This document shows, piece after piece, positions 3,001 to 9,000 of a stretch of DNA of 64,000 nucleotides. Position numbers: made by a program. The DNA is from Escherichia coli (GTDB taxonomy: Bacteria > Pseudomonadota > Gammaproteobacteria > Enterobacterales > Enterobacteriaceae). Positions within the stretch are counted from its first letter, which is position 1. The number at the start of each line of letters is the position of its first letter. Location of the stretch: assembly GCF_011045215.1 (NCBI RefSeq), contig NZ_CP049201.1, one strand, 5' to 3'.

Positions 3001-6000
3001 CCTGCGCTATCCCCCATTAACGTTATTCTGTTGCGATCAACTTTCAACATTTCTGCGTGTTGCCACACAATATTAGCGGCATGTTCAGCATCGTCATGTG
3101 CCGCAGGATAAATATGTTCCGGCGCTAATCGATATTGTACAGCAATGACACGACAGCCGCTCAGGAAAGCAAGCTGTCGCAACTGATTATCATGGGTTAC
3201 AAAACCACCACTGACAAAACAGCCACCATGATAATAGACAATTGTGGATGACTCCCCATCATCGTTTAACGGCGAAAATATACGCAATAAAACATCGTCA
3301 ATAATCACATCACTGATGTTTACACGGGTTTCTGTATCGCCGGCCAGAGCAGTACTTTCTATATATCCGGCACGGCGTTCATCAAAGGTCTGGTCACGAC
3401 TGGATGGACGACCAGCCGCAACAAACTCGTTTACAAGGTTCGCGATTTCCTGTTCAAGAGCCATACGAATCATTTCCGGACGATCATATTTAAACAATCC
3501 TCTTGGAAGTATAAATACGCTGCTCAAAAAATAAAAGATGAATAACCATAGTTTCAACAGGTGTAATACTGGTACTTATGGTACATAGCAGCAATAAATT
3601 CTTTATTTTCCTGAATGTTAAGGAGGTTCCTGCTCTTAGGGACTTGCGGCAAGCGATACCCGGAACAGAATTATGTTTACGGTCTGGTTTGATATTGGAT
3701 TCAATATAATTAAAGCGTTCTCAAAAGTCTGACCGGATTACCCGCATACACGCCTTTTACCAGCACAGGCTTTATAACCACACTACCAGCACCAATCACT
3801 GCTCCACTGCAAATTTCTGTTGTTAAAATGGTCGCTCCGCTACCCACTGTTACAGTGTTACCTAATACGATGCGTATCCAGCTTTCTGCAGAGGCATCGG
3901 GACCACCACACTTAAAAAGATCATTAGCAAAAGTTACGCCATGACCGATGAAACAGCCATCACCTAAAATGACGTTCTCACAGATGAAACTGTGGGACTG
4001 AATTCGGCTCCGGTTGCCAATGATACATCCCTTCTGTATTTCCACAAAGGGACCGATAAAAACATCATCCCCCAGTTCACATTCATAGAGGTTTACTGGC
4101 ATGACGACTTTCACATTTTCACCAAATTTCACATCACGAATGCGGCTGTCAATAACGTTCATATCCGTTGTATCCTCCCTCAGGATGATTCTTATCAGAA
4201 CATTTCACCTGTCAGAATATTCCCGGTAATGTGATACAAGAGCCTGTCTCACCGGGTACCACGTGTTATTGCCCGTATCCTTTTGCCCGTTACGAGTGTA
4301 CAACCGGTTTTATATTTTGCAATCCAGGCCTGTTACACCAGAGCATCCTCTCACTGCCCCCTCACTGGTCAATCCGGGATTCAAAGTCATCCTCCAGCAC
4401 TAAACCCCATACCAGTCCTGAACCTTCCCTCGCCAGCAGCCAGACTCCTACTGTTCACCACAATCCTCTTCCGTGAATGGCCGTAAGTGCGCAGCACCAA
4501 AATAAATCGGTACTTCCGATGACAGACAGTGAAAGCGTCAGAGAAATATGAACATGAGAATGGAAGCAGATACATGACTTCAGGACGACTTTTTCAGAAA
4601 ACGAGCTAAGGGCGTCAGCCAACGACCTTACCGTGGTATACGCTCAGGCGCCGGATGCCGTTTTACCCGGTTCACCTGCCATCCAGCAAACGCCCCGGCC
4701 CACGACTGCAACCATAATTACGTTGCCCGGAACCGTCATGCTGCTTCGTCTCATATTTCACGAGATAACTGGCTCTGTTCCGAGCTTTCTGCATCGCTTC
4801 CACATCACCACGCTTGATCCAGAGAACAGCGGCTTCACCAGACTTTTTGTCTGAAGCCTTCCTGGTTTCAGAACATTCACCAGGCACAGGCGTATCATCG
4901 GAAGAAGGGCGAGCATCAGATGATGTCGGTTTACGGAAAGGCGTTGACAGCGTCCGCCTGGAAAAATGAACCAGTCCATTACCCTGCCAAGGCTCAAGAT
5001 GCAGAGCACTGCACCATGCCAGTTGGATCAGCGTCGCCAGCGAAGAAGGAACGGTGAAATCCCCTGGCGAGCACCAGGTATCTTTGTTGAGCAGTAATAT
5101 CACGTGATAATGTTTCCTGCCTTTTTCCTTGCCAAACTCCCGACACCAGAAATAACGCAGAGTGGTTGCGCGCACACGCTTGTTGGCACGTCGTTTTTTC
5201 CGCTGGTAAGCCTGAATTTTTGCTTTCAGGGATTCGAAAAAACGAGAAATCACCGCTGAATCTAAATCGGTATCCATGATGGTGGCAGGCATATACTCAG
5301 GAAAACGTAAATCCACCCGAATTAACGAGACGGCACGGTGTTGCGCCAGGGCACTGTTGAGAATGCTTTCAAAACGGGATAACCAGTAAGCATTGTGTAT
5401 TGGTTGATTCATGATGAGAGATCTCCGTTGATTTGGATTGACTTCACATCATTAATCACTGTGGTAAAACTTTACGGCATCCCGCCATTGAGCAACGCCA
5501 ATGGCTCCTGATTAAAACAGAATGAATCCCCCACGAAGAAAAGATAAACCTACACGCAGAGTGAAACACACAACAACGGCATAAATGGTTTTTAAAAACT
5601 ACAAAGCCTGAAGGGAAACGGATCAACAAAACGTGCAAACAAAACGTCAGAAACGCAATCAGAACGCTTTCTGGCTCTGTAAATCAACAACAACACCAAA
5701 ACCTACAGCTTAACCACACAACTCAATCACAGAGCCGAATAGCGCGCTTAAAACCTGTTTACAGATAACCCCGCCACAAGAACAAAAACCACCAATATCA
5801 GAATCGATTTTCTTATCCTGAAAACGTTACTTTTCAACACACCATAAAAACGATTAACCATCAATAACGTAAATCTCATCTGAATCAAAACACCAGAACC
5901 AATCATCACGCTTTTCCTGAAAAGAGCCTTATGATGAAGATAATCACCTTGCGCTGAGAAAAAACACCAGGGCCAGTTAATCATCTCATCAATCTCATTG

Positions 6001-9000
6001 CTACAAAATCATCTATAAAACCATTTAACAAAATCATCGTAAGCACACAGTAAATCACGCCAGGTTATCTCAGCCGGATTTGCGTTTTACATAAAAACAC
6101 TTGTCTCAGGTTAACGACTAAAAACACGAAAACTCATAAAAGGTTAAATGTAACATCAGTAAAATCGAATAGCATATTGACTGCTTAAACAGGACAGGGA
6201 GTTTTGTAGTGACGTTAACTGATTTTAGTTAGCGTAAAGATTTACTAAACTGGATGTGTTTCAGACAAAGCAATGTGTATAACAATGCTTAATGAAAACA
6301 CTTGTAGAATTGTTTATGAAAACACGTGCATGTCTGGTAAAACACTTAGTAGAAAATACGTGTATAACACTTACTGAAATGCTTAGTAAAAATACTGAGT
6401 AAAATACGTGTATATAGTATCATACCGACATTCTCAACATCTTCAGACATCCATGCAGACTGAGTGTTGATTTCAGTTTTTCACGGCCAGCATGGATCTT
6501 TACTGGTCAAAAAACAGACAGATTTACTCTGGAATTATTTTTCCAGGCCTCCCTGAAAAGACCATCCGGAGCACCCCGTTCGTCAGCTTCCATGTTGTCT
6601 TTTACCCCCGGAAAGTGATCGCATTTTCCAGCCAGAATGACAGCCATACTGATTATGACGTCTCTCCGGCCCCTTCACATATAACATTCATGTCAGTCAT
6701 TTCTACTGTCTCACTCACCGAAATTCTCCATGCCGGATGAAGCAATTGTTCTGAACTGAGCAGAAGCATAACAGCACACACAAGGAAACGACTGTGCCAT
6801 AGATCCCGGAATCAGGATCTTAATGTCAGGAAAACAGTGACGACCGGGGATAACTAACAACAACCTGAGTACAGAAGAAAGCTTTCCCGCGCACGCCACC
6901 ATCTTATGTAAGAGGATATGATGCCCCCACCTCAGAAGAACCGTCTCCGGGAGAACTTCACTGCATCAAAAATCCTTTTGCTGAGTTCTCATTCCCCATC
7001 ATGGCAGCTACAGACATGCCCTGACAGAGCGTATGCGCATTGAGAGAAATAACCATAAATGATGAGAAGACACTCTATATGACGACAGCATGTTGAGGTA
7101 TAAAAAATATTCATCTAAATATTTTAAGAATATTTTTTATTGCAAATTACATGAAATAACATGATGTCAATATAATTTTGTCAAATGCGTGAGATTAATC
7201 ACATTGTAATTTTATGTATTTTTATGTAAATAAGAGAAAATGATCCATGAGCGTTATTGCATTTTTTCTGATGTATGGATAAAAGGGGGATTCAGGCAAA
7301 ATTTACTGACAGAGGAGATGATAAGAGGGGGTTAAAGAGTTCTATAGAGTTGGTTGTGCATTTATACCCAGGGAGTTCATGTCTGTGCATTCACCAGATG
7401 AATCTGCTCATGTTTTTAGTAGGATGGAATATGAATATCACCGACATAACGATAAATTACGTTCTGTTAATGCTGATAATGCAGGCAGAGACGTTGTTCC
7501 GGAGTGGGTGCAAAAAGACCCTGTAGCCGCATTCTGGGTATGGATGTTTATATATCATGTTCCTGACAGTATTGTCCGACTCTCAGGTGAGCGATATGCA
7601 GATTACGGAACTTCCTGTCTGTATTCCAGACTGTTCGCTGCTGAAGCACTTCCGGTTGAGCATCAGGCAAGGATTAGTGTGACGAGAAAATGGCTACAGG
7701 AACTTAAAAGGCTAACCGGAACAGAAAATGTATCTGACTTCTTGTATGCCGTTCATTTTTTATGGTCATATGCTGAAAAAGTGAACCCCATGACATGGCT
7801 TGGTTCCCGGCGGATACATATCAAATGGGCATGGGCGTATCTGCAGAAACATTGCACTGACGAAGAACGTCACTGTCCTGATATTTCAGAATTTAAAGCT
7901 TCAGGGGAGTCCCGTCTGTTCATAATAGCTTATGTGCGCTGTGTCTTCATGAAAATCTATTCTGTCGGTACTGAACCTCAAAAGTTAAAAGAATTAGTTC
8001 ATCAGCAGAATGATTTTCTCAGGCGCATGAAGTGCTCATACCAGAAAATGTTCCGGTATGAGAAAACCGATTCCCGGGTACAGATAAGTGCCCTGATTTC
8101 TCCGGAAGCCAGGAATGCACTCCGGAAAATGGCAAAAAAGAATAATCTGACTCAGGCTGAAATACTGGATAAACTCATCTTATCAGCTGATCGTCTGTTT
8201 ATGCAGAAAACAACCGGGGATTATTCCCGTTAATGAGTTCCACCAGAACCGTTTTTCTTTTTGCTGCTGTTTTTGCGTTTATGCTGTTCGTACCTTTCTT
8301 TTGACGTACAAAGGAATCTTCCATAAACATTGCGGATATATGAGTTGATACACTCCAGCATTCTCTCTTTTCGTGATTTCCCTTTTTCCTTCGAATCTTC
8401 ACTTTGAACATTAATGTTCATCAGTTCTTTTATAAACTTATCCAGATTTTCCATGTCATAAAGCAGCATGAAAAACATCACATTTCCCAGTGATTCCAGT
8501 AACTGAGATTCAACCCTGTACCCATATTTTCTGAAACTTAGCCCTGTTAAAAACTGTTCAAACATTACCCCTGATTCAAAAAGAGATTTTAATCCCAGTC
8601 GCTTATATTCCAGGTAAAAAAGTTCAAACGTCGGGGATGCTGAACGGCAAATAAACGAAGACAGCGCCCATGGATCAAAATATGTAACACGCTTCCCCTC
8701 CCGCACTTCCTGCGGTGTCAGCGGCGGTTCAGCAAACCAGGCGTCCAGCTCAGCCGAATCGCTGTCCCTGCTCAAAACCTCATACAAACTGCCCGTGAAC
8801 GGTTGAGGCGGATTTTTGGTTGCTTCATCTTCTGATTGTCTGGATTGTCTGAATCCGTCCACTTTTCTCCGGATATTACGCGGGATCAGCATAAAAGGCG
8901 GGACATTAAGTGATAAATGTTTACCCGTCATGCGATACCATTGCCCCACCTCAACCTTAATCCGTGTATCTGGCCTTAGCTCAAGTGCTATTATGTTAAG

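What the first reader, a model, noticed from the sequence alone, without database searches (positions are those of the whole stretch)
5413..7378. 2-kb gene-free AT-rich stretch with clustered direct repeats
This is an unusually long non-coding interval for E. coli. At 6270-6415 the motifs AAAACACTTrkTAG and ACGTGTATA / TGTATAACA recur several times, which resembles iterons or arrayed regulator binding sites; an sRNA or degraded gene is also possible.
Basis: seen in the sequence. Interest (0 to 1): 0.4.

Follow-up and report, generated by a model that had tools for sequence, protein, structure and literature searches.

The report
Promoter-and-repeat control region of island
The gene-free stretch is a real, conserved non-coding control region of a mobile genomic island: its repeat array sits directly against a conserved promoter, and that promoter accompanies a replication-initiator-like gene in many enterobacterial islands, so the region is functional but of a broadly familiar kind.

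Summary
Window 5413-7378 has no conserved ORF, is 39% G+C, and carries a real repeat array at 6270-6415.

It is the divergent intergenic region between a YagK/YfjJ ("inovirus Gp2", HUH Rep-like) gene (4672-5412, minus strand) and a 284-aa gene.

About 1.13 kb (5413-6545) is a non-coding module found in roughly a third of complete E. coli genomes. It is always fused to the 5' end of that gene.

The array changes length by gain or loss of ~12-nt units (101-235 nt across variants).

The new result is at its distal edge. Two boxes are conserved upstream of Gp2-like genes that share only 31-49% protein identity (Providencia, Morganellaceae and others): Box 1 (TATAGTATCATACCGACA, 6413-6430) and Box 2 (TTACTCTGGAATTATTT, 6524-6540). 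Each lineage has its own tandem array nearby.

In E. coli K-12 (yagK-yagL spacer), published Cappable-seq data place a primary transcription start exactly on the first C of Box 1.

Best reading: a sigma-70 promoter firing away from the Rep-like gene, with the array as its operator-type binding sites.

A rolling-circle origin is not excluded.

No Rfam family, structured RNA or pseudogene is supported.

The parts
4672..5412 (-). YagK/YfjJ-family ('inovirus Gp2') gene, an HUH Rep-like protein (motifs IRVDLRFP, KHYHVILLL, YLVKYETK). The non-coding module is always attached to its 5' end.
   Evidence: Pfam PF11726 (E 7e-37) and PF23343 REP_ORF2-G2P (E 2.7e-10). The motifs are conserved across the family.
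5413..5492 (-). Proximal leader of the Gp2-like gene, including the Shine-Dalgarno complement CTCC at 5423-5426. It is the most conserved segment of the module.
   Evidence: Mean pairwise identity is 0.956, higher than codon positions 1+2 of the gene (0.933). A 41-nt stretch is invariant in nine E. coli genomes that were picked without using this stretch. The 0.956 figure comes mostly from metagenome loci selected with an exact 24-mer at 5424-5447, so it is inflated.
5493..6130 (+). C/A-rich, G-poor spacer (A 41%, C 25.5%, G 13%, T 20%). It is an E. coli-specific expansion that is absent from distant islands and tolerates insertions.
   Evidence: Composition. The skew is kept in all 66 variants: GC skew -0.34 to -0.17, AT skew +0.30 to +0.38. 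In 21 variants a 1.15-kb insertion carrying a gene replaces 5580-5872. One variant has a (CCATCA)n expansion.
6131..6269 (.). Conserved AT-rich block upstream of the array (AAGGTTAAACGTAACATCAGTAAAATCGAATAGCA...CTGGATGTGT), with short duplications in some variants.
   Evidence: Column conservation of 0.91-0.96 in sub-blocks; alignment.
6270..6415 (+). Tandem array of about 11 degenerate 12-13-nt units (consensus AAAAYAC-KTR-GTA, which also reads as TAC-N3-GTA dyads separated by A-tracts).
   Evidence: The array is present in every variant that carries the module's distal part (83 unique segments recovered with two flanking anchors), and its length between fixed anchors ranges from 101 to 235 nt through unit gain or loss. 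AAAAYAC occurs 2-10 times on the + strand and never on the - strand in all 66 variants.
6413..6430 (+). Box 1: the -10 hexamer TATAGT (6413-6418), a 6-nt discriminator, then CCGACA. The predicted transcription start is C6425 (plus or minus 1) on the + strand.
   Evidence: It is the unique top PWM hit in the 64 kb: 23.5 bits, or 17.5 with E. coli left out, against 11.5-12.4 for the next hit. It is conserved in distant islands. The K-12 orthologue has a Cappable-seq TSS on the first C of CCAACA.
6433..6485 (+). Imperfect A/U-rich hairpin (6433-6472) followed by TTTCAGTTTTTCAC. It is only a weak terminator candidate for the Box 1 transcript.
   Evidence: The sequence and class-to-class changes are shown. 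The fold energy is not better than shuffles (z = +0.2). This is inference only.
6524..6540 (+). Box 2: TTACTCTGGAATTATTT. It is the second conserved box and marks the distal end of the conserved module. Its function is unknown.
   Evidence: Top PWM hit: 23.3 bits, or 20.0 with E. coli left out. It is conserved 57-125 nt beyond Box 1 in the distant lineages and lies at +56 of the K-12 transcript.
6546..7378 (+). Class-specific upstream region of the 284-aa gene. It contains a perfect 13-bp inverted repeat (7100-7112 / 7128-7140), tandem 10-mers (7144-7164, 7205-7229) and a promoter-like site on the - strand (7230-7203).
   Evidence: It is conserved only in homologues that carry the same 284-aa gene. 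Repeats and promoter scan.
7379..8233 (+). 284-aa gene with a C-terminal ribbon-helix-helix-like tail. It is the right-hand neighbour, is replaced by unrelated genes in other islands, and is not part of the conserved module.
   Evidence: Weak NCBIfam match to RepA regulatory protein, below the family cut-off. NCBI names a homologue 'replication regulatory RepB family'. Neighbour genes are unrelated across islands.

Best explanation
The interval is the non-coding control region of a CP4-type integrative island. It lies between the island's HUH Rep-like gene (the Gp2-like gene, transcribed leftwards) and variable genes on the right.

Its working core is 6270-6540.

- Promoter. A sigma-70 promoter (Box 1) has the -10 hexamer TATAGT at 6413-6418 and no recognisable -35. 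It starts a + strand transcript at about C6425, directed away from the Rep-like gene.
- Array. The ~11-unit tandem array (6270-6415) occupies positions of about -10 to -155 of this promoter. It is an operator-type set of binding sites for a DNA-binding protein whose specificity differs between island lineages. The protein could be island-encoded (for example the AlpA-family protein or the Gp2-like protein) or a host factor. Gain and loss of units tunes occupancy.
- Transcript. It runs through a variable ~100-nt stretch into a second conserved box (Box 2, 6524-6540). It has no conserved ORF, so it most likely acts as a non-coding leader or counter-transcript. It would oppose leftward transcription entering the Gp2-AlpA operon, or feed the rightward genes.
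- Spacer. The 5493-6130 C/A-rich tract is an E. coli-specific expanded spacer between the Rep-like gene's own proximal control region and this promoter.

Shown: conservation, anatomy, array polymorphism, and promoter activity of the K-12 orthologue.

Inferred: promoter activity in this island, protein binding to the array, and the role of the transcript and of Box 2.
For: 1. The module 5413-6545 is present in 1876 of 5426 complete E. coli genomes at 75-92% identity, and it always starts at the Gp2-like gene.
2. The array is kept in every variant that carries the module's distal part (83 unique segments) but varies from 101 to 235 nt by unit gain or loss. The first units and the last unit, which abuts TATAGT/TATAAT, stay fixed.
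3. Box 1 and Box 2 recur upstream of Gp2-like genes with only 31-49% protein identity. They keep the same strand, the same order and a 57-125 nt spacing.
4. With leave-one-lineage-out PWMs, the best hit of the whole locus on both strands is the expected site for both boxes in 9 of 15 loci, for example 24.9 against 12.5 bits.
5. On the + strand a -10 hexamer with A2 and T6 (TATAAT, TATAGT, TATATT or GATAAT) lies 6-7 nt before CCRACA in 13 of the 14 catalogued Box 1 instances, L141 being the exception. The opposite-strand hexamer is lost in several.
6. In K-12 CP4-6, Box 1 and Box 2 lie in the yagK-yagL spacer. Cappable-seq gives a + strand primary TSS at U00096.2 position 292,365 (RRS 46.2, log2 enrichment 5.5). 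This is the first C of CCAACA, 6 nt after TATAAT.
7. SELEX-chip finds a constitutive RpoD-holoenzyme site, H-NS binding and an RNAP peak at 292,358 in the same spacer. The TetR-family regulator RcdA also binds it.
8. Distant lineages carry their own tandem arrays within a few tens of nucleotides of Box 1: 11-nt AAACACATA units (L135), 22-nt units repeated 3-4 times (L145) and 36-nt units repeated 5 times (L138). L134 has ~22-nt units in the same spacer, but its Box 1 is unsupported.
9. No conserved ORF, Rfam family or significant RNA fold competes with this reading.
Against: - No expression data exist for the long, array-bearing E. coli module itself. The TSS evidence is from the short K-12 orthologue, which lacks this array.
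- There is no -35 element, and the simple promoter scan did not call the site.
- No binding protein is identified. Apart from the first 80 nt, the module's sequence drifts at about the synonymous rate of the neighbouring gene (0.78-0.88 against 0.875 identity), so purifying selection on most of it is weak.
- The Morganellaceae loci have only weak repeats near Box 1.
- Box 2 is unexplained.
- Genes to the right of Box 2 lie in either orientation, so the transcript has no constant coding target.
- The minus-strand TSS list for K-12 was not available (the stored file is cut). The Gp2-like gene's own promoter is therefore unplaced, and a promoter on the other strand overlapping Box 1, as predicted in PMC3946193, cannot be excluded.
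Confidence: 0.55

Rival explanations
1. Rolling-circle-type origin (double-strand origin) for the adjacent HUH Rep-like protein. The array would be the Rep 'bind' locus (iterons). One of the conserved boxes would be the nick site. After excision, the island circle would be nicked there and replicated or mobilised as single-stranded DNA.
For: - The neighbouring gene belongs to a replication-initiator family and keeps the HUH and Y-x-x-K motifs across the family.
- The boxes and arrays track this gene, not the other neighbour, in all lineages. This includes loci where no divergent gene exists (L141, L142, L144).
- A conserved short core plus lineage-specific direct repeats is the classic layout of geminivirus, circovirus and pMV158-type origins (general knowledge).
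- A DUF3987/YfjI primase-helicase-like gene lies in the same island.
Against: - Box 1 is already explained by a mapped TSS.
- No hairpin is conserved around either box, and the fold energy is not better than shuffles.
- The array is 860 nt from the gene in E. coli.
- Several gene copies next to intact modules are frameshifted or lack the HUH or Tyr motif.
- A recalled resemblance of the boxes to the phiX174 origin failed a PWM scan of the phage genome.
- No nicking or replication data exist for any YagK/YfjJ protein in the papers I found.
Confidence: 0.2
2. A trans-acting small RNA gene. Box 1 would be its promoter, Box 2 a conserved functional (seed or protein-binding) segment of the RNA, and the array only a transcriptional control element.
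For: - The K-12 orthologue has a strong primary TSS with no ORF downstream. The transcript runs antisense into the 3' end of yagL.
- Box 2 is conserved at the nucleotide level at +56 to +123, whatever gene follows.
- Related E. coli islands encode ProQ/FinO-family proteins, although in the three loci seen they are annotated as frameshifted pseudogenes.
Against: - No Rfam match.
- No conserved secondary structure or intrinsic terminator. The spacer varies in length and cannot be aligned between lineages.
- Term-seq lists show no + strand 3' end in the K-12 spacer.
- No conserved complementarity to the Gp2-like gene's translation start region was seen by eye; this was not computed.
Confidence: 0.12
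3. Functionless remnant. The region would be H-NS-coated, AT-rich spacer DNA or decayed genes. It would be carried along by linkage to the Gp2-like gene, and the array would be a neutral minisatellite produced by slippage.
For: - Most of the module diverges at about the synonymous rate.
- The C/A-rich tract tolerates a 1.15-kb insertion and a microsatellite expansion.
- H-NS binds the K-12 orthologous spacer.
- Array length is highly polymorphic.
Against: - A 1.1-kb non-coding block is retained, with only small indels, in 86 distinct variants and a third of E. coli genomes despite the usual deletion bias.
- Box 1 and Box 2 are conserved far beyond alignable DNA similarity.
- The orthologous promoter is active.
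- Tandem arrays recur independently in unrelated sequence form in other lineages.
- There is no frame-consistent ORF trace of a former gene.
Confidence: 0.1

Closest known systems
Promoter-operator arrays of mobile-element control regions (for example the R1 parC iterons around the parMR promoter, omega-repressor heptad arrays, pMV158 copG-repB control)
   Same: - Tandem direct repeats of about one helical turn lie immediately upstream of, and overlapping, a promoter.
- The number of units varies between relatives.
- The element lies in the divergent control region of a replication or maintenance module.
   Different: - The binding protein is unknown.
- The period is 12-13 nt rather than 7, 10 or 11.
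- There is no partition NTPase nearby.
- The promoter points away from the Rep-like gene.
- A second conserved box of unknown role lies about 100 nt downstream.
Double-strand origins of rolling-circle replicons (pMV158 nic + bind loci; geminivirus or circovirus nonanucleotide + iterons)
   Same: - An HUH Rep-family gene lies in cis.
- A short core is conserved across distant relatives, and adjacent direct repeats are lineage-specific.
   Different: - No conserved hairpin presents a nick site.
- The core coincides with a mapped transcription start.
- The element sits in an integrase-bearing chromosomal island, and no activity has been shown for the protein family.
Iteron-type plasmid origins (pSC101, P1, F, RK2)
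   Same: AT-rich non-coding DNA with clustered direct repeats near an initiator-like gene.
   Different: - Units are 12-13 nt (24 nt as doublets), not 17-22 nt at about 22-nt phasing.
- There is only one relaxed DnaA box.
- The gene is an HUH-type protein, not a winged-helix Rep.
- There are no plasmid homologues beyond four E. coli records.
yagK-yagL intergenic region of E. coli K-12 cryptic prophage CP4-6
   Same: - It is an orthologous, short version of the same control region. Box 1 scores 19 bits and Box 2 19 bits, in the same orientation relative to the YagK-family gene.
- It has a mapped + strand TSS and RNAP, H-NS and RcdA binding.
   Different: - It is only 271 nt long.
- It lacks the 12-13-nt array and the C/A-rich spacer.
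- It carries a 10-bp inverted repeat (TACTCTTACT...AGTAAGAGTA) upstream of the promoter instead.

Membership tests
Sigma-70 promoter | A -10 hexamer with A at position 2 and T at position 6, placed 6-7 nt upstream of the start | tested here: met
   TATAGT lies at 6413-6418, 6 nt before CCGACA. An equivalent hexamer occurs in 13 of the 14 catalogued Box 1 instances, L141 being the exception.
Sigma-70 promoter | A -35 hexamer resembling TTGACA, 16-18 nt upstream | tested here: not met
   Positions 6389-6396 read AAAATACT. The consensus scan does not call the site. The array occupies this position.
Sigma-70 promoter | An experimentally mapped 5'-triphosphate transcript end | tested here: inconclusive
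   Met for the K-12 orthologue: Cappable-seq TSS at 292,365 (+), RRS 46.2. No data exist for the array-bearing module of this window.
Iteron-type theta replication origin | Three or more direct repeats of 17-22 bp phased at about 22 bp | tested here: not met
   Units are 11-14 nt, or 20-24 nt as doublets. TRF finds a period of 13.
Iteron-type theta replication origin | DnaA boxes and an AT-rich unwinding element next to the iterons | tested here: inconclusive
   There is one relaxed DnaA box (TTATACACA, 6274, - strand) and one 1-mismatch site at 5710. The region is AT-rich throughout.
Iteron-type theta replication origin | Supports autonomous replication with its cognate initiator | not testable with these tools
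   This needs a replication assay.
Rolling-circle double-strand origin | An HUH Rep gene in cis with intact catalytic motifs | tested here: met
   PF23343 and PF11726 match. HYHVILLL and YLVKYETK are present and family-conserved.
Rolling-circle double-strand origin | A conserved nick sequence presented in or next to a conserved hairpin | tested here: inconclusive
   Two conserved boxes exist, but the hairpins near them are not conserved or stable.
Rolling-circle double-strand origin | Site-specific nicking by the Rep protein | not testable with these tools
   This needs biochemistry.
Known RNA families (Rfam 15) | A covariance-model match at or near the gathering score | tested here: not met
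   No match lies within 5413-7378 at E <= 1, and no gathering-score match lies in the island part of the window.
Type III toxin-antitoxin RNA repeat array (ToxI-like) | Tandem RNA repeats followed by a terminator and a conserved toxin ORF on the same strand | tested here: not met
   The downstream + strand ORF (6492-6740) is frameshifted between variants and its ATG is lost in some.
Protein-coding gene or pseudogene | An ORF conserved in frame across homologues | tested here: not met
   Indels of 11, 8 and 4 nt occur. ORFs are found only where the strand composition depletes stop codons.

The most novel reading that the evidence does not exclude
Box 1, Box 2 and the lineage-specific arrays would form the cis-acting origin (nick and bind loci) of the YagK/YfjJ HUH proteins. 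The widespread 'cryptic' CP4-type islands of Enterobacterales would then replicate, or generate transferable single-stranded DNA, by a rolling-circle step after excision. The mapped promoter would serve to open or regulate that origin.
Probability: 0.15. Interest if true: 0.8.

Novelty: new member of a known kind. Interest (0 to 1): 0.45.

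Why it matters
YagK/YfjJ ('inovirus Gp2') genes together with AlpA form a core module of a very large class of integrative islands that carry virulence, defence and toxin-antitoxin cargo. 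These include K-12 CP4-6 and CP4-57, the Shigella SRL island, and Pseudomonas islands moved by jumbo phages. How that module is controlled, and whether the HUH protein has a DNA target, is unknown.

This work gives the module a defined, testable cis element. It consists of an 18-nt promoter box with a mapped start in K-12, a second 17-nt box, and polymorphic repeat arrays beside them.

The element can be used in three ways:
- to annotate such islands;
- to design reporter, footprinting and nicking experiments;
- to ask whether unit-number variation in the array changes island activity.

Tried and rejected
1. Rfam scans of the region and of the whole window found nothing relevant. The only hit is istR at 60.5 kb.
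2. RNA folding of ten sub-segments on both strands gave z-scores from -2.1 to +0.4, so there is no case for a structured RNA. Folding the predicted transcripts of 17 lineages showed no shared structure.
3. Coding tests showed no ORF conserved in frame.
4. I looked for coupling between Gp2 protein variants and array variants. There is none beyond physical linkage: L065 shares the divergent array of L040 but has a different Gp2 mid-section.
5. I recalled a resemblance of Box 2 and Box 1 to the phiX174 origin (CAACTTGATATTAATAACACTATAGACCAC). PWM scans of the phage genome do not rank the origin among the top hits, so I rejected it as chance.
6. The type III toxin-antitoxin repeat idea was rejected because there is no conserved toxin ORF.
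7. AlpA as a Q-like antiterminator acting here was not pursued. The P. aeruginosa protein is much larger (DNA-contact residues 128-142), and its site (GGGACG between -35 and -10) has no counterpart here. The island AlpA proteins are 70-78 aa.
8. The second YagK/YfjJ paralogue in L001 also has a 1.5-kb empty upstream region, but it has no similarity, array or boxes.
9. Some searches gave little:
   - A viral-contig DNA pattern search gave 0 hits.
   - A genome-contig scan with a single protein gave only 2 loci.
   - The phage collection gave no match.
   - The plasmid collection gave four E. coli records only.
10. I sought more transcript data without success:
   - Term-seq lists have no + strand 3' end in the K-12 spacer.
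   - The ROSE and SMRT-Cappable-seq supplements hold nothing for the locus.
   - The Thomason dRNA-seq paper is not held.
   - The minus-strand part of the Cappable-seq table is cut off.
11. O-island 43 of EDL933 was fetched in order to use an EDL933 TSS data set, but it lacks the module.
12. The simple promoter scan found fewer promoter-like sites than shuffles (2 against 7.2) and did not call Box 1.

Full report
**Observation**

Window 5413-7378 lies between two divergently oriented genes. On the left is a 246-aa ORF on the minus strand (4672-5412). On the right is a 284-aa ORF on the plus strand (7379-8233). Between them the longest mechanical ORFs are 78-83 aa.

The stretch is 38.9% G+C against 47.5% for the window, with minima of 0.33.

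| Motif | Copies | Positions |
|---|---|---|
| AAAACACTT | 3 | 6094, 6295, 6339 |
| ACGTGTATA | 2 | 6358, 6406 |
| TGTATAACA | 2 | 6276, 6361 |

None of these occurs anywhere else in the 64 kb.

The core word AAAACAC occurs seven times in 5887-6345, always on the + strand. Local dinucleotide-preserving shuffles give 0.33.

The array at 6270-6415 resolves into about 11 degenerate units of 11-14 nt, or 20-24 nt as doublets.

**Context**

The left gene matches PF11726 (YagK_YfjJ_C) and PF23343 (Replication-associated protein ORF2/G2P). It carries the three motifs of HUH rolling-circle initiators: IRVDLRFP, KHYHVILLL and YLVKYETK. I call it the Gp2-like gene.

Further left are cargo genes and a DUF3987/YfjI gene. 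To the right are a 335-aa gene, a YeeP-like GTPase and the usual CP4-type backbone.

The right-hand 284-aa protein has a ribbon-helix-helix-like tail. In other islands it is replaced by unrelated genes in either orientation.

**Conservation in E. coli**

Megablast finds the region in 1876 of 5426 complete E. coli genomes at 75-92% identity. The match nearly always begins at query position 1, the start of the Gp2-like gene. It ends at about 1130 or 1300 nt, that is window 6543 or 6712. NCBI annotates nothing, or only short unconserved ORFs, there.

A metagenome scan with a 24-mer from the leader gave 117 further contigs. Together with the genome loci this makes 86 distinct variants.

In 21 of these, a 1.15-kb insertion carrying a plus-strand gene replaces window 5580-5872. 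The distal part, including the array, is retained.

Alignment shows fairly even conservation across 5413-6545. Indels are not multiples of three, and no ORF is conserved in frame. ORFs appear only where strand composition removes stop codons.

Pairwise identity of the non-coding segments (0.78-0.88) is close to that of the Gp2-like gene's third codon positions (0.875). The exception is the first 80 nt at 0.956, a value inflated because most loci were selected with an exact 24-mer inside that stretch.

Most of the sequence is therefore only weakly constrained. Its presence, length and composition are nonetheless maintained. The C/A-rich, G-poor character of 5493-6130 is kept in all 66 aligned variants.

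**The array**

Between fixed anchors (CTGGATGTG ... CCGACATT) the array ranges from 101 to 235 nt. It changes by gain and loss of units. The first units, and the last unit abutting TATAGT or TATAAT, stay constant.

AAAAYAC occurs 2-10 times per variant on the + strand and never on the - strand. Copies of the word outside the array are not positionally conserved.

The most divergent E. coli class keeps the periodic TAATGrAAA motif even though the sequence between has changed.

**No RNA family or fold**

Rfam gives nothing here. Ten sub-segments folded on both strands give z-scores between -2.1 and +0.4.

**Distant relatives: the key result**

I fetched homologues of the Gp2-like protein at 31-49% identity, with their flanks. 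They come from Brenneria, Providencia, Morganellaceae, Jinshanibacter and several virus-catalogue and metagenome contigs.

Most distant relatives show the order Gp2-like gene then AlpA then cargo, with a 400-750-nt spacer upstream. Five loci have the GTPase backbone on the other side of the spacer. In L138 and L142 the AlpA gene lies elsewhere in the locus.

These spacers share no alignable DNA with the window. They do contain two short boxes that match the distal end of the E. coli module:

| Box | Consensus | Window position |
|---|---|---|
| Box 1 | TATAaTACtATACC(G/A)ACA | 6413-6430 |
| Box 2 | TtACTCTGrrrTTAgtT | 6524-6540 |

Both lie on the strand antisense to the Gp2-like gene. Box 1 is nearer the gene, and the boxes are 57-125 nt apart.

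I built PWMs leaving out the lineage being tested. The best hit of the entire locus, on both strands, was the expected site for both boxes in 9 of 15 loci, by wide margins (for example 24.9 against 12.5 bits). It was the expected site for Box 2 alone in two more.

In the 64-kb window, Box 1 is the unique top hit. Box 2 is the top hit by a narrow margin over one chance site.

The boxes follow the Gp2-like gene even where the upstream neighbour is co-directional, as in L141, L142 and L144. They therefore belong with that gene.

Several lineages have their own tandem arrays within a few tens of nucleotides of Box 1:

| Locus | Unit | Copies or spacing |
|---|---|---|
| L135 | AAACACATA | 11-nt spacing |
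| L145 | GATATAGAGATATATAGGTTTA | 3-4 copies |
| L138 | 36 nt, containing TTAGTA...TACTAA palindromes | 5 copies |
| L134 | AAAATGTGT | ~22-nt spacing |

In L134 the array lies in the same spacer, but Box 1 itself is not supported there.

**Box 1 is a promoter**

On the + strand, 13 of the 14 catalogued Box 1 instances have a -10 hexamer with A2 and T6 (TATAAT, TATAGT, TATATT or GATAAT), 6-7 nt before CCRACA. L141 is the exception, with a longer gap. The hexamer on the other strand is lost in several E. coli classes and in L147 and L148.

E. coli K-12 carries the short form of the element in the yagK-yagL spacer of CP4-6. Box 1 is at L005 8130-8147 and Box 2 at 8197-8213.

The published Cappable-seq table for MG1655 (PMC4782308, genome U00096.2) lists a + strand primary TSS at 292,365, with relative read score 46.2 (threshold 1.5) and log2 enrichment 5.5. 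After the 776-nt offset to U00096.3, this is L005 8142. That is the first C of CCAACA, six bases after TATAAT.

I took the 776-nt offset from my recollection of the yagK coordinates in the two genome versions. It is corroborated by the ideal -10 spacing it gives at both mapped starts, and by SELEX peaks placed in the yagK-yagL spacer in the old numbering.

A second + strand TSS at 292,275 falls six bases after a TATACT. This confirms the coordinate conversion.

With about 16,500 TSSs in 9.3 Mb of strand sequence, a hit within 1 nt of a predicted base has a chance of roughly 0.5%.

Independent SELEX-chip work gives three further results for the same spacer:
- a constitutive RpoD-holoenzyme site and H-NS binding (PMC3946193);
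- an RNAP peak at 292,358 (PMC5493296);
- binding of the TetR-family regulator RcdA (PMC3535384).

**Interpretation**

By homology, the window has a sigma-70 promoter with -10 at 6413-6418 and a start near C6425, firing rightwards, away from the Gp2-like gene. It has no -35. The array fills positions of about -10 to -155.

The simplest reading is that the array is a set of operator-type binding sites. The protein's specificity would differ between island lineages, which explains why the array sequence, period and copy number differ while the promoter core is conserved.

Candidate binders are the AlpA-family protein, the Gp2-like protein itself, or a host factor. The AlpA-family protein is encoded just downstream of the Gp2-like gene in most distant lineages, and two genes downstream in E. 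coli islands of the L001 type. It is absent from the part of the island inside this window. None of these candidates was tested.

The transcript has no conserved ORF or fold. It crosses a weak A/U-rich hairpin plus T-run (6433-6485) and then Box 2. What follows Box 2 varies in identity and orientation.

I therefore infer a non-coding leader or counter-transcript role. It might oppose leftward read-through into the Gp2-AlpA operon, or feed the rightward genes. This step is inference.

Box 2 is unexplained.

The C/A-rich 5493-6130 tract is an E. coli-specific expansion of the spacer that tolerates insertions. I assign it no specific function.

The segment 6546-7378 belongs to the 284-aa gene and has its own inverted repeat and 10-mer repeats.

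**Rivals**

*Rolling-circle origin.* A rolling-circle-type origin for the HUH protein fits the layout of a conserved core plus lineage-specific repeats, and the strict linkage to the gene. It lacks a conserved hairpin, and Box 1 is already accounted for by the TSS. A recalled similarity to the phiX174 origin failed a PWM test. I give it 0.2. It is not exclusive of the promoter reading.

*Trans-acting sRNA.* This reading gets 0.12. It has a TSS and a conserved Box 2, but no fold, terminator or mapped 3' end.

*Functionless remnant.* This gets 0.1. It is contradicted by box conservation, by promoter activity and by recurrent arrays in other lineages.

*Plasmid-type iterons.* These fail on unit length, phasing and DnaA boxes.

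**Novelty and verdict**

I found no description of this element in the searchable literature. The K-12 TSS exists only as a line in a supplementary table.

It is an undescribed example of a familiar kind, a promoter with repeat-array control in a mobile element's regulatory region. It is attached to a poorly understood and very widespread gene family. Interest is moderate at 0.45. It would be high only if the origin reading proves true.

Noticed in passing
window 60506-60635 (-): The only Rfam gathering-score match in the window is IstR (the Hfq-binding antitoxin RNA of the tisB/istR locus) at 144.8 bits. It places the right-hand part of the window in core E. coli chromosome near tisB.
   Followed up: no
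window 7100-7230: Upstream of the 284-aa RHH-tailed gene there is a perfect 13-bp inverted repeat (ATAAAAAATATTC N15 GAATATTTTTTAT). There are also two short tandem 10-mer repeats (7144-7164, 7205-7229) and a - strand promoter-like site (TTTACA-16-TACAAT, 7230-7203). This looks like a separate operator region for that gene.
   Followed up: partly
L021, L023 and 19 other metagenome variants (equivalent to window 5580-5872): A 1.15-kb insertion carries a 176-aa plus-strand gene (MKLTEESLNLVIDILNDL...). It replaces part of the C/A-rich tract and leaves the array and boxes intact.
   Followed up: partly
L002 5380-5450 (equivalent to window ~5782): A (CCATCA)n microsatellite expansion of about 45 nt lies inside the C/A-rich tract in E. 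coli CAVP761. NCBI calls short 'hypothetical proteins' across this composition-driven open frame.
   Followed up: no
L005 8032-8052 (K-12 MG1655 yagK-yagL spacer): A second + strand Cappable-seq TSS (U00096.2 position 292,275, RRS 27.2) lies 6 nt after TATACT. It sits next to an inverted Box-1-like core (TGTCGGTATATACT). A 10-bp inverted repeat (TACTCTTACT...AGTAAGAGTA) and an RcdA-box-like TTGTGTAC lie between the two starts.
   Followed up: partly
window 4672-5412 (-) and alignment A1: The E. coli Gp2-like proteins carry an insertion of about 45 aa, rich in Ser, Pro and Asp (RTLSTPFRKPTSSDARPSSDDTPVPGECSETRKASDKKSGE). It lies between the HUH and Tyr motifs and is absent from all distant relatives. 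Several copies next to intact modules (P0064, P0080, P0089) are frameshifted or lack a catalytic motif.
   Followed up: partly
L001 1208-1783 (-): The 191-aa 'hypothetical protein' between the Gp2-like gene and AlpA looks like a second, degenerate YagK/YfjJ-type protein (RILLRLPWEH..., YHVVLCV), but it has no Pfam hit.
   Followed up: no
L133 (ERZ1714329 contig_191), 1330-2550 upstream of the gene: This variant has the module broken into pieces, with the array and Box 1 region apparently present twice (matches to window 6366-6440 and 6328-6541). It lies next to a truncated Gp2-like gene and a 3.5-kb gene-poor stretch.
   Followed up: no
L005 8253 (K-12 U00096.3 293,252, - strand): Published data list a Rho-dependent (bicyclomycin-sensitive) 3' end inside the end of yagL, about 40 nt before Box 2 on the incoming minus-strand transcript. 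This hints that leftward transcription is stopped just before the control region.
   Followed up: no
window 28124-28140 (-): The best Box 2-like sequence outside the finding (TCACTCTGATATTAACC, 17.7-19.7 bits) lies inside a 1197-aa ORF far from any Gp2-like gene. I take it to be a chance match.
   Followed up: no
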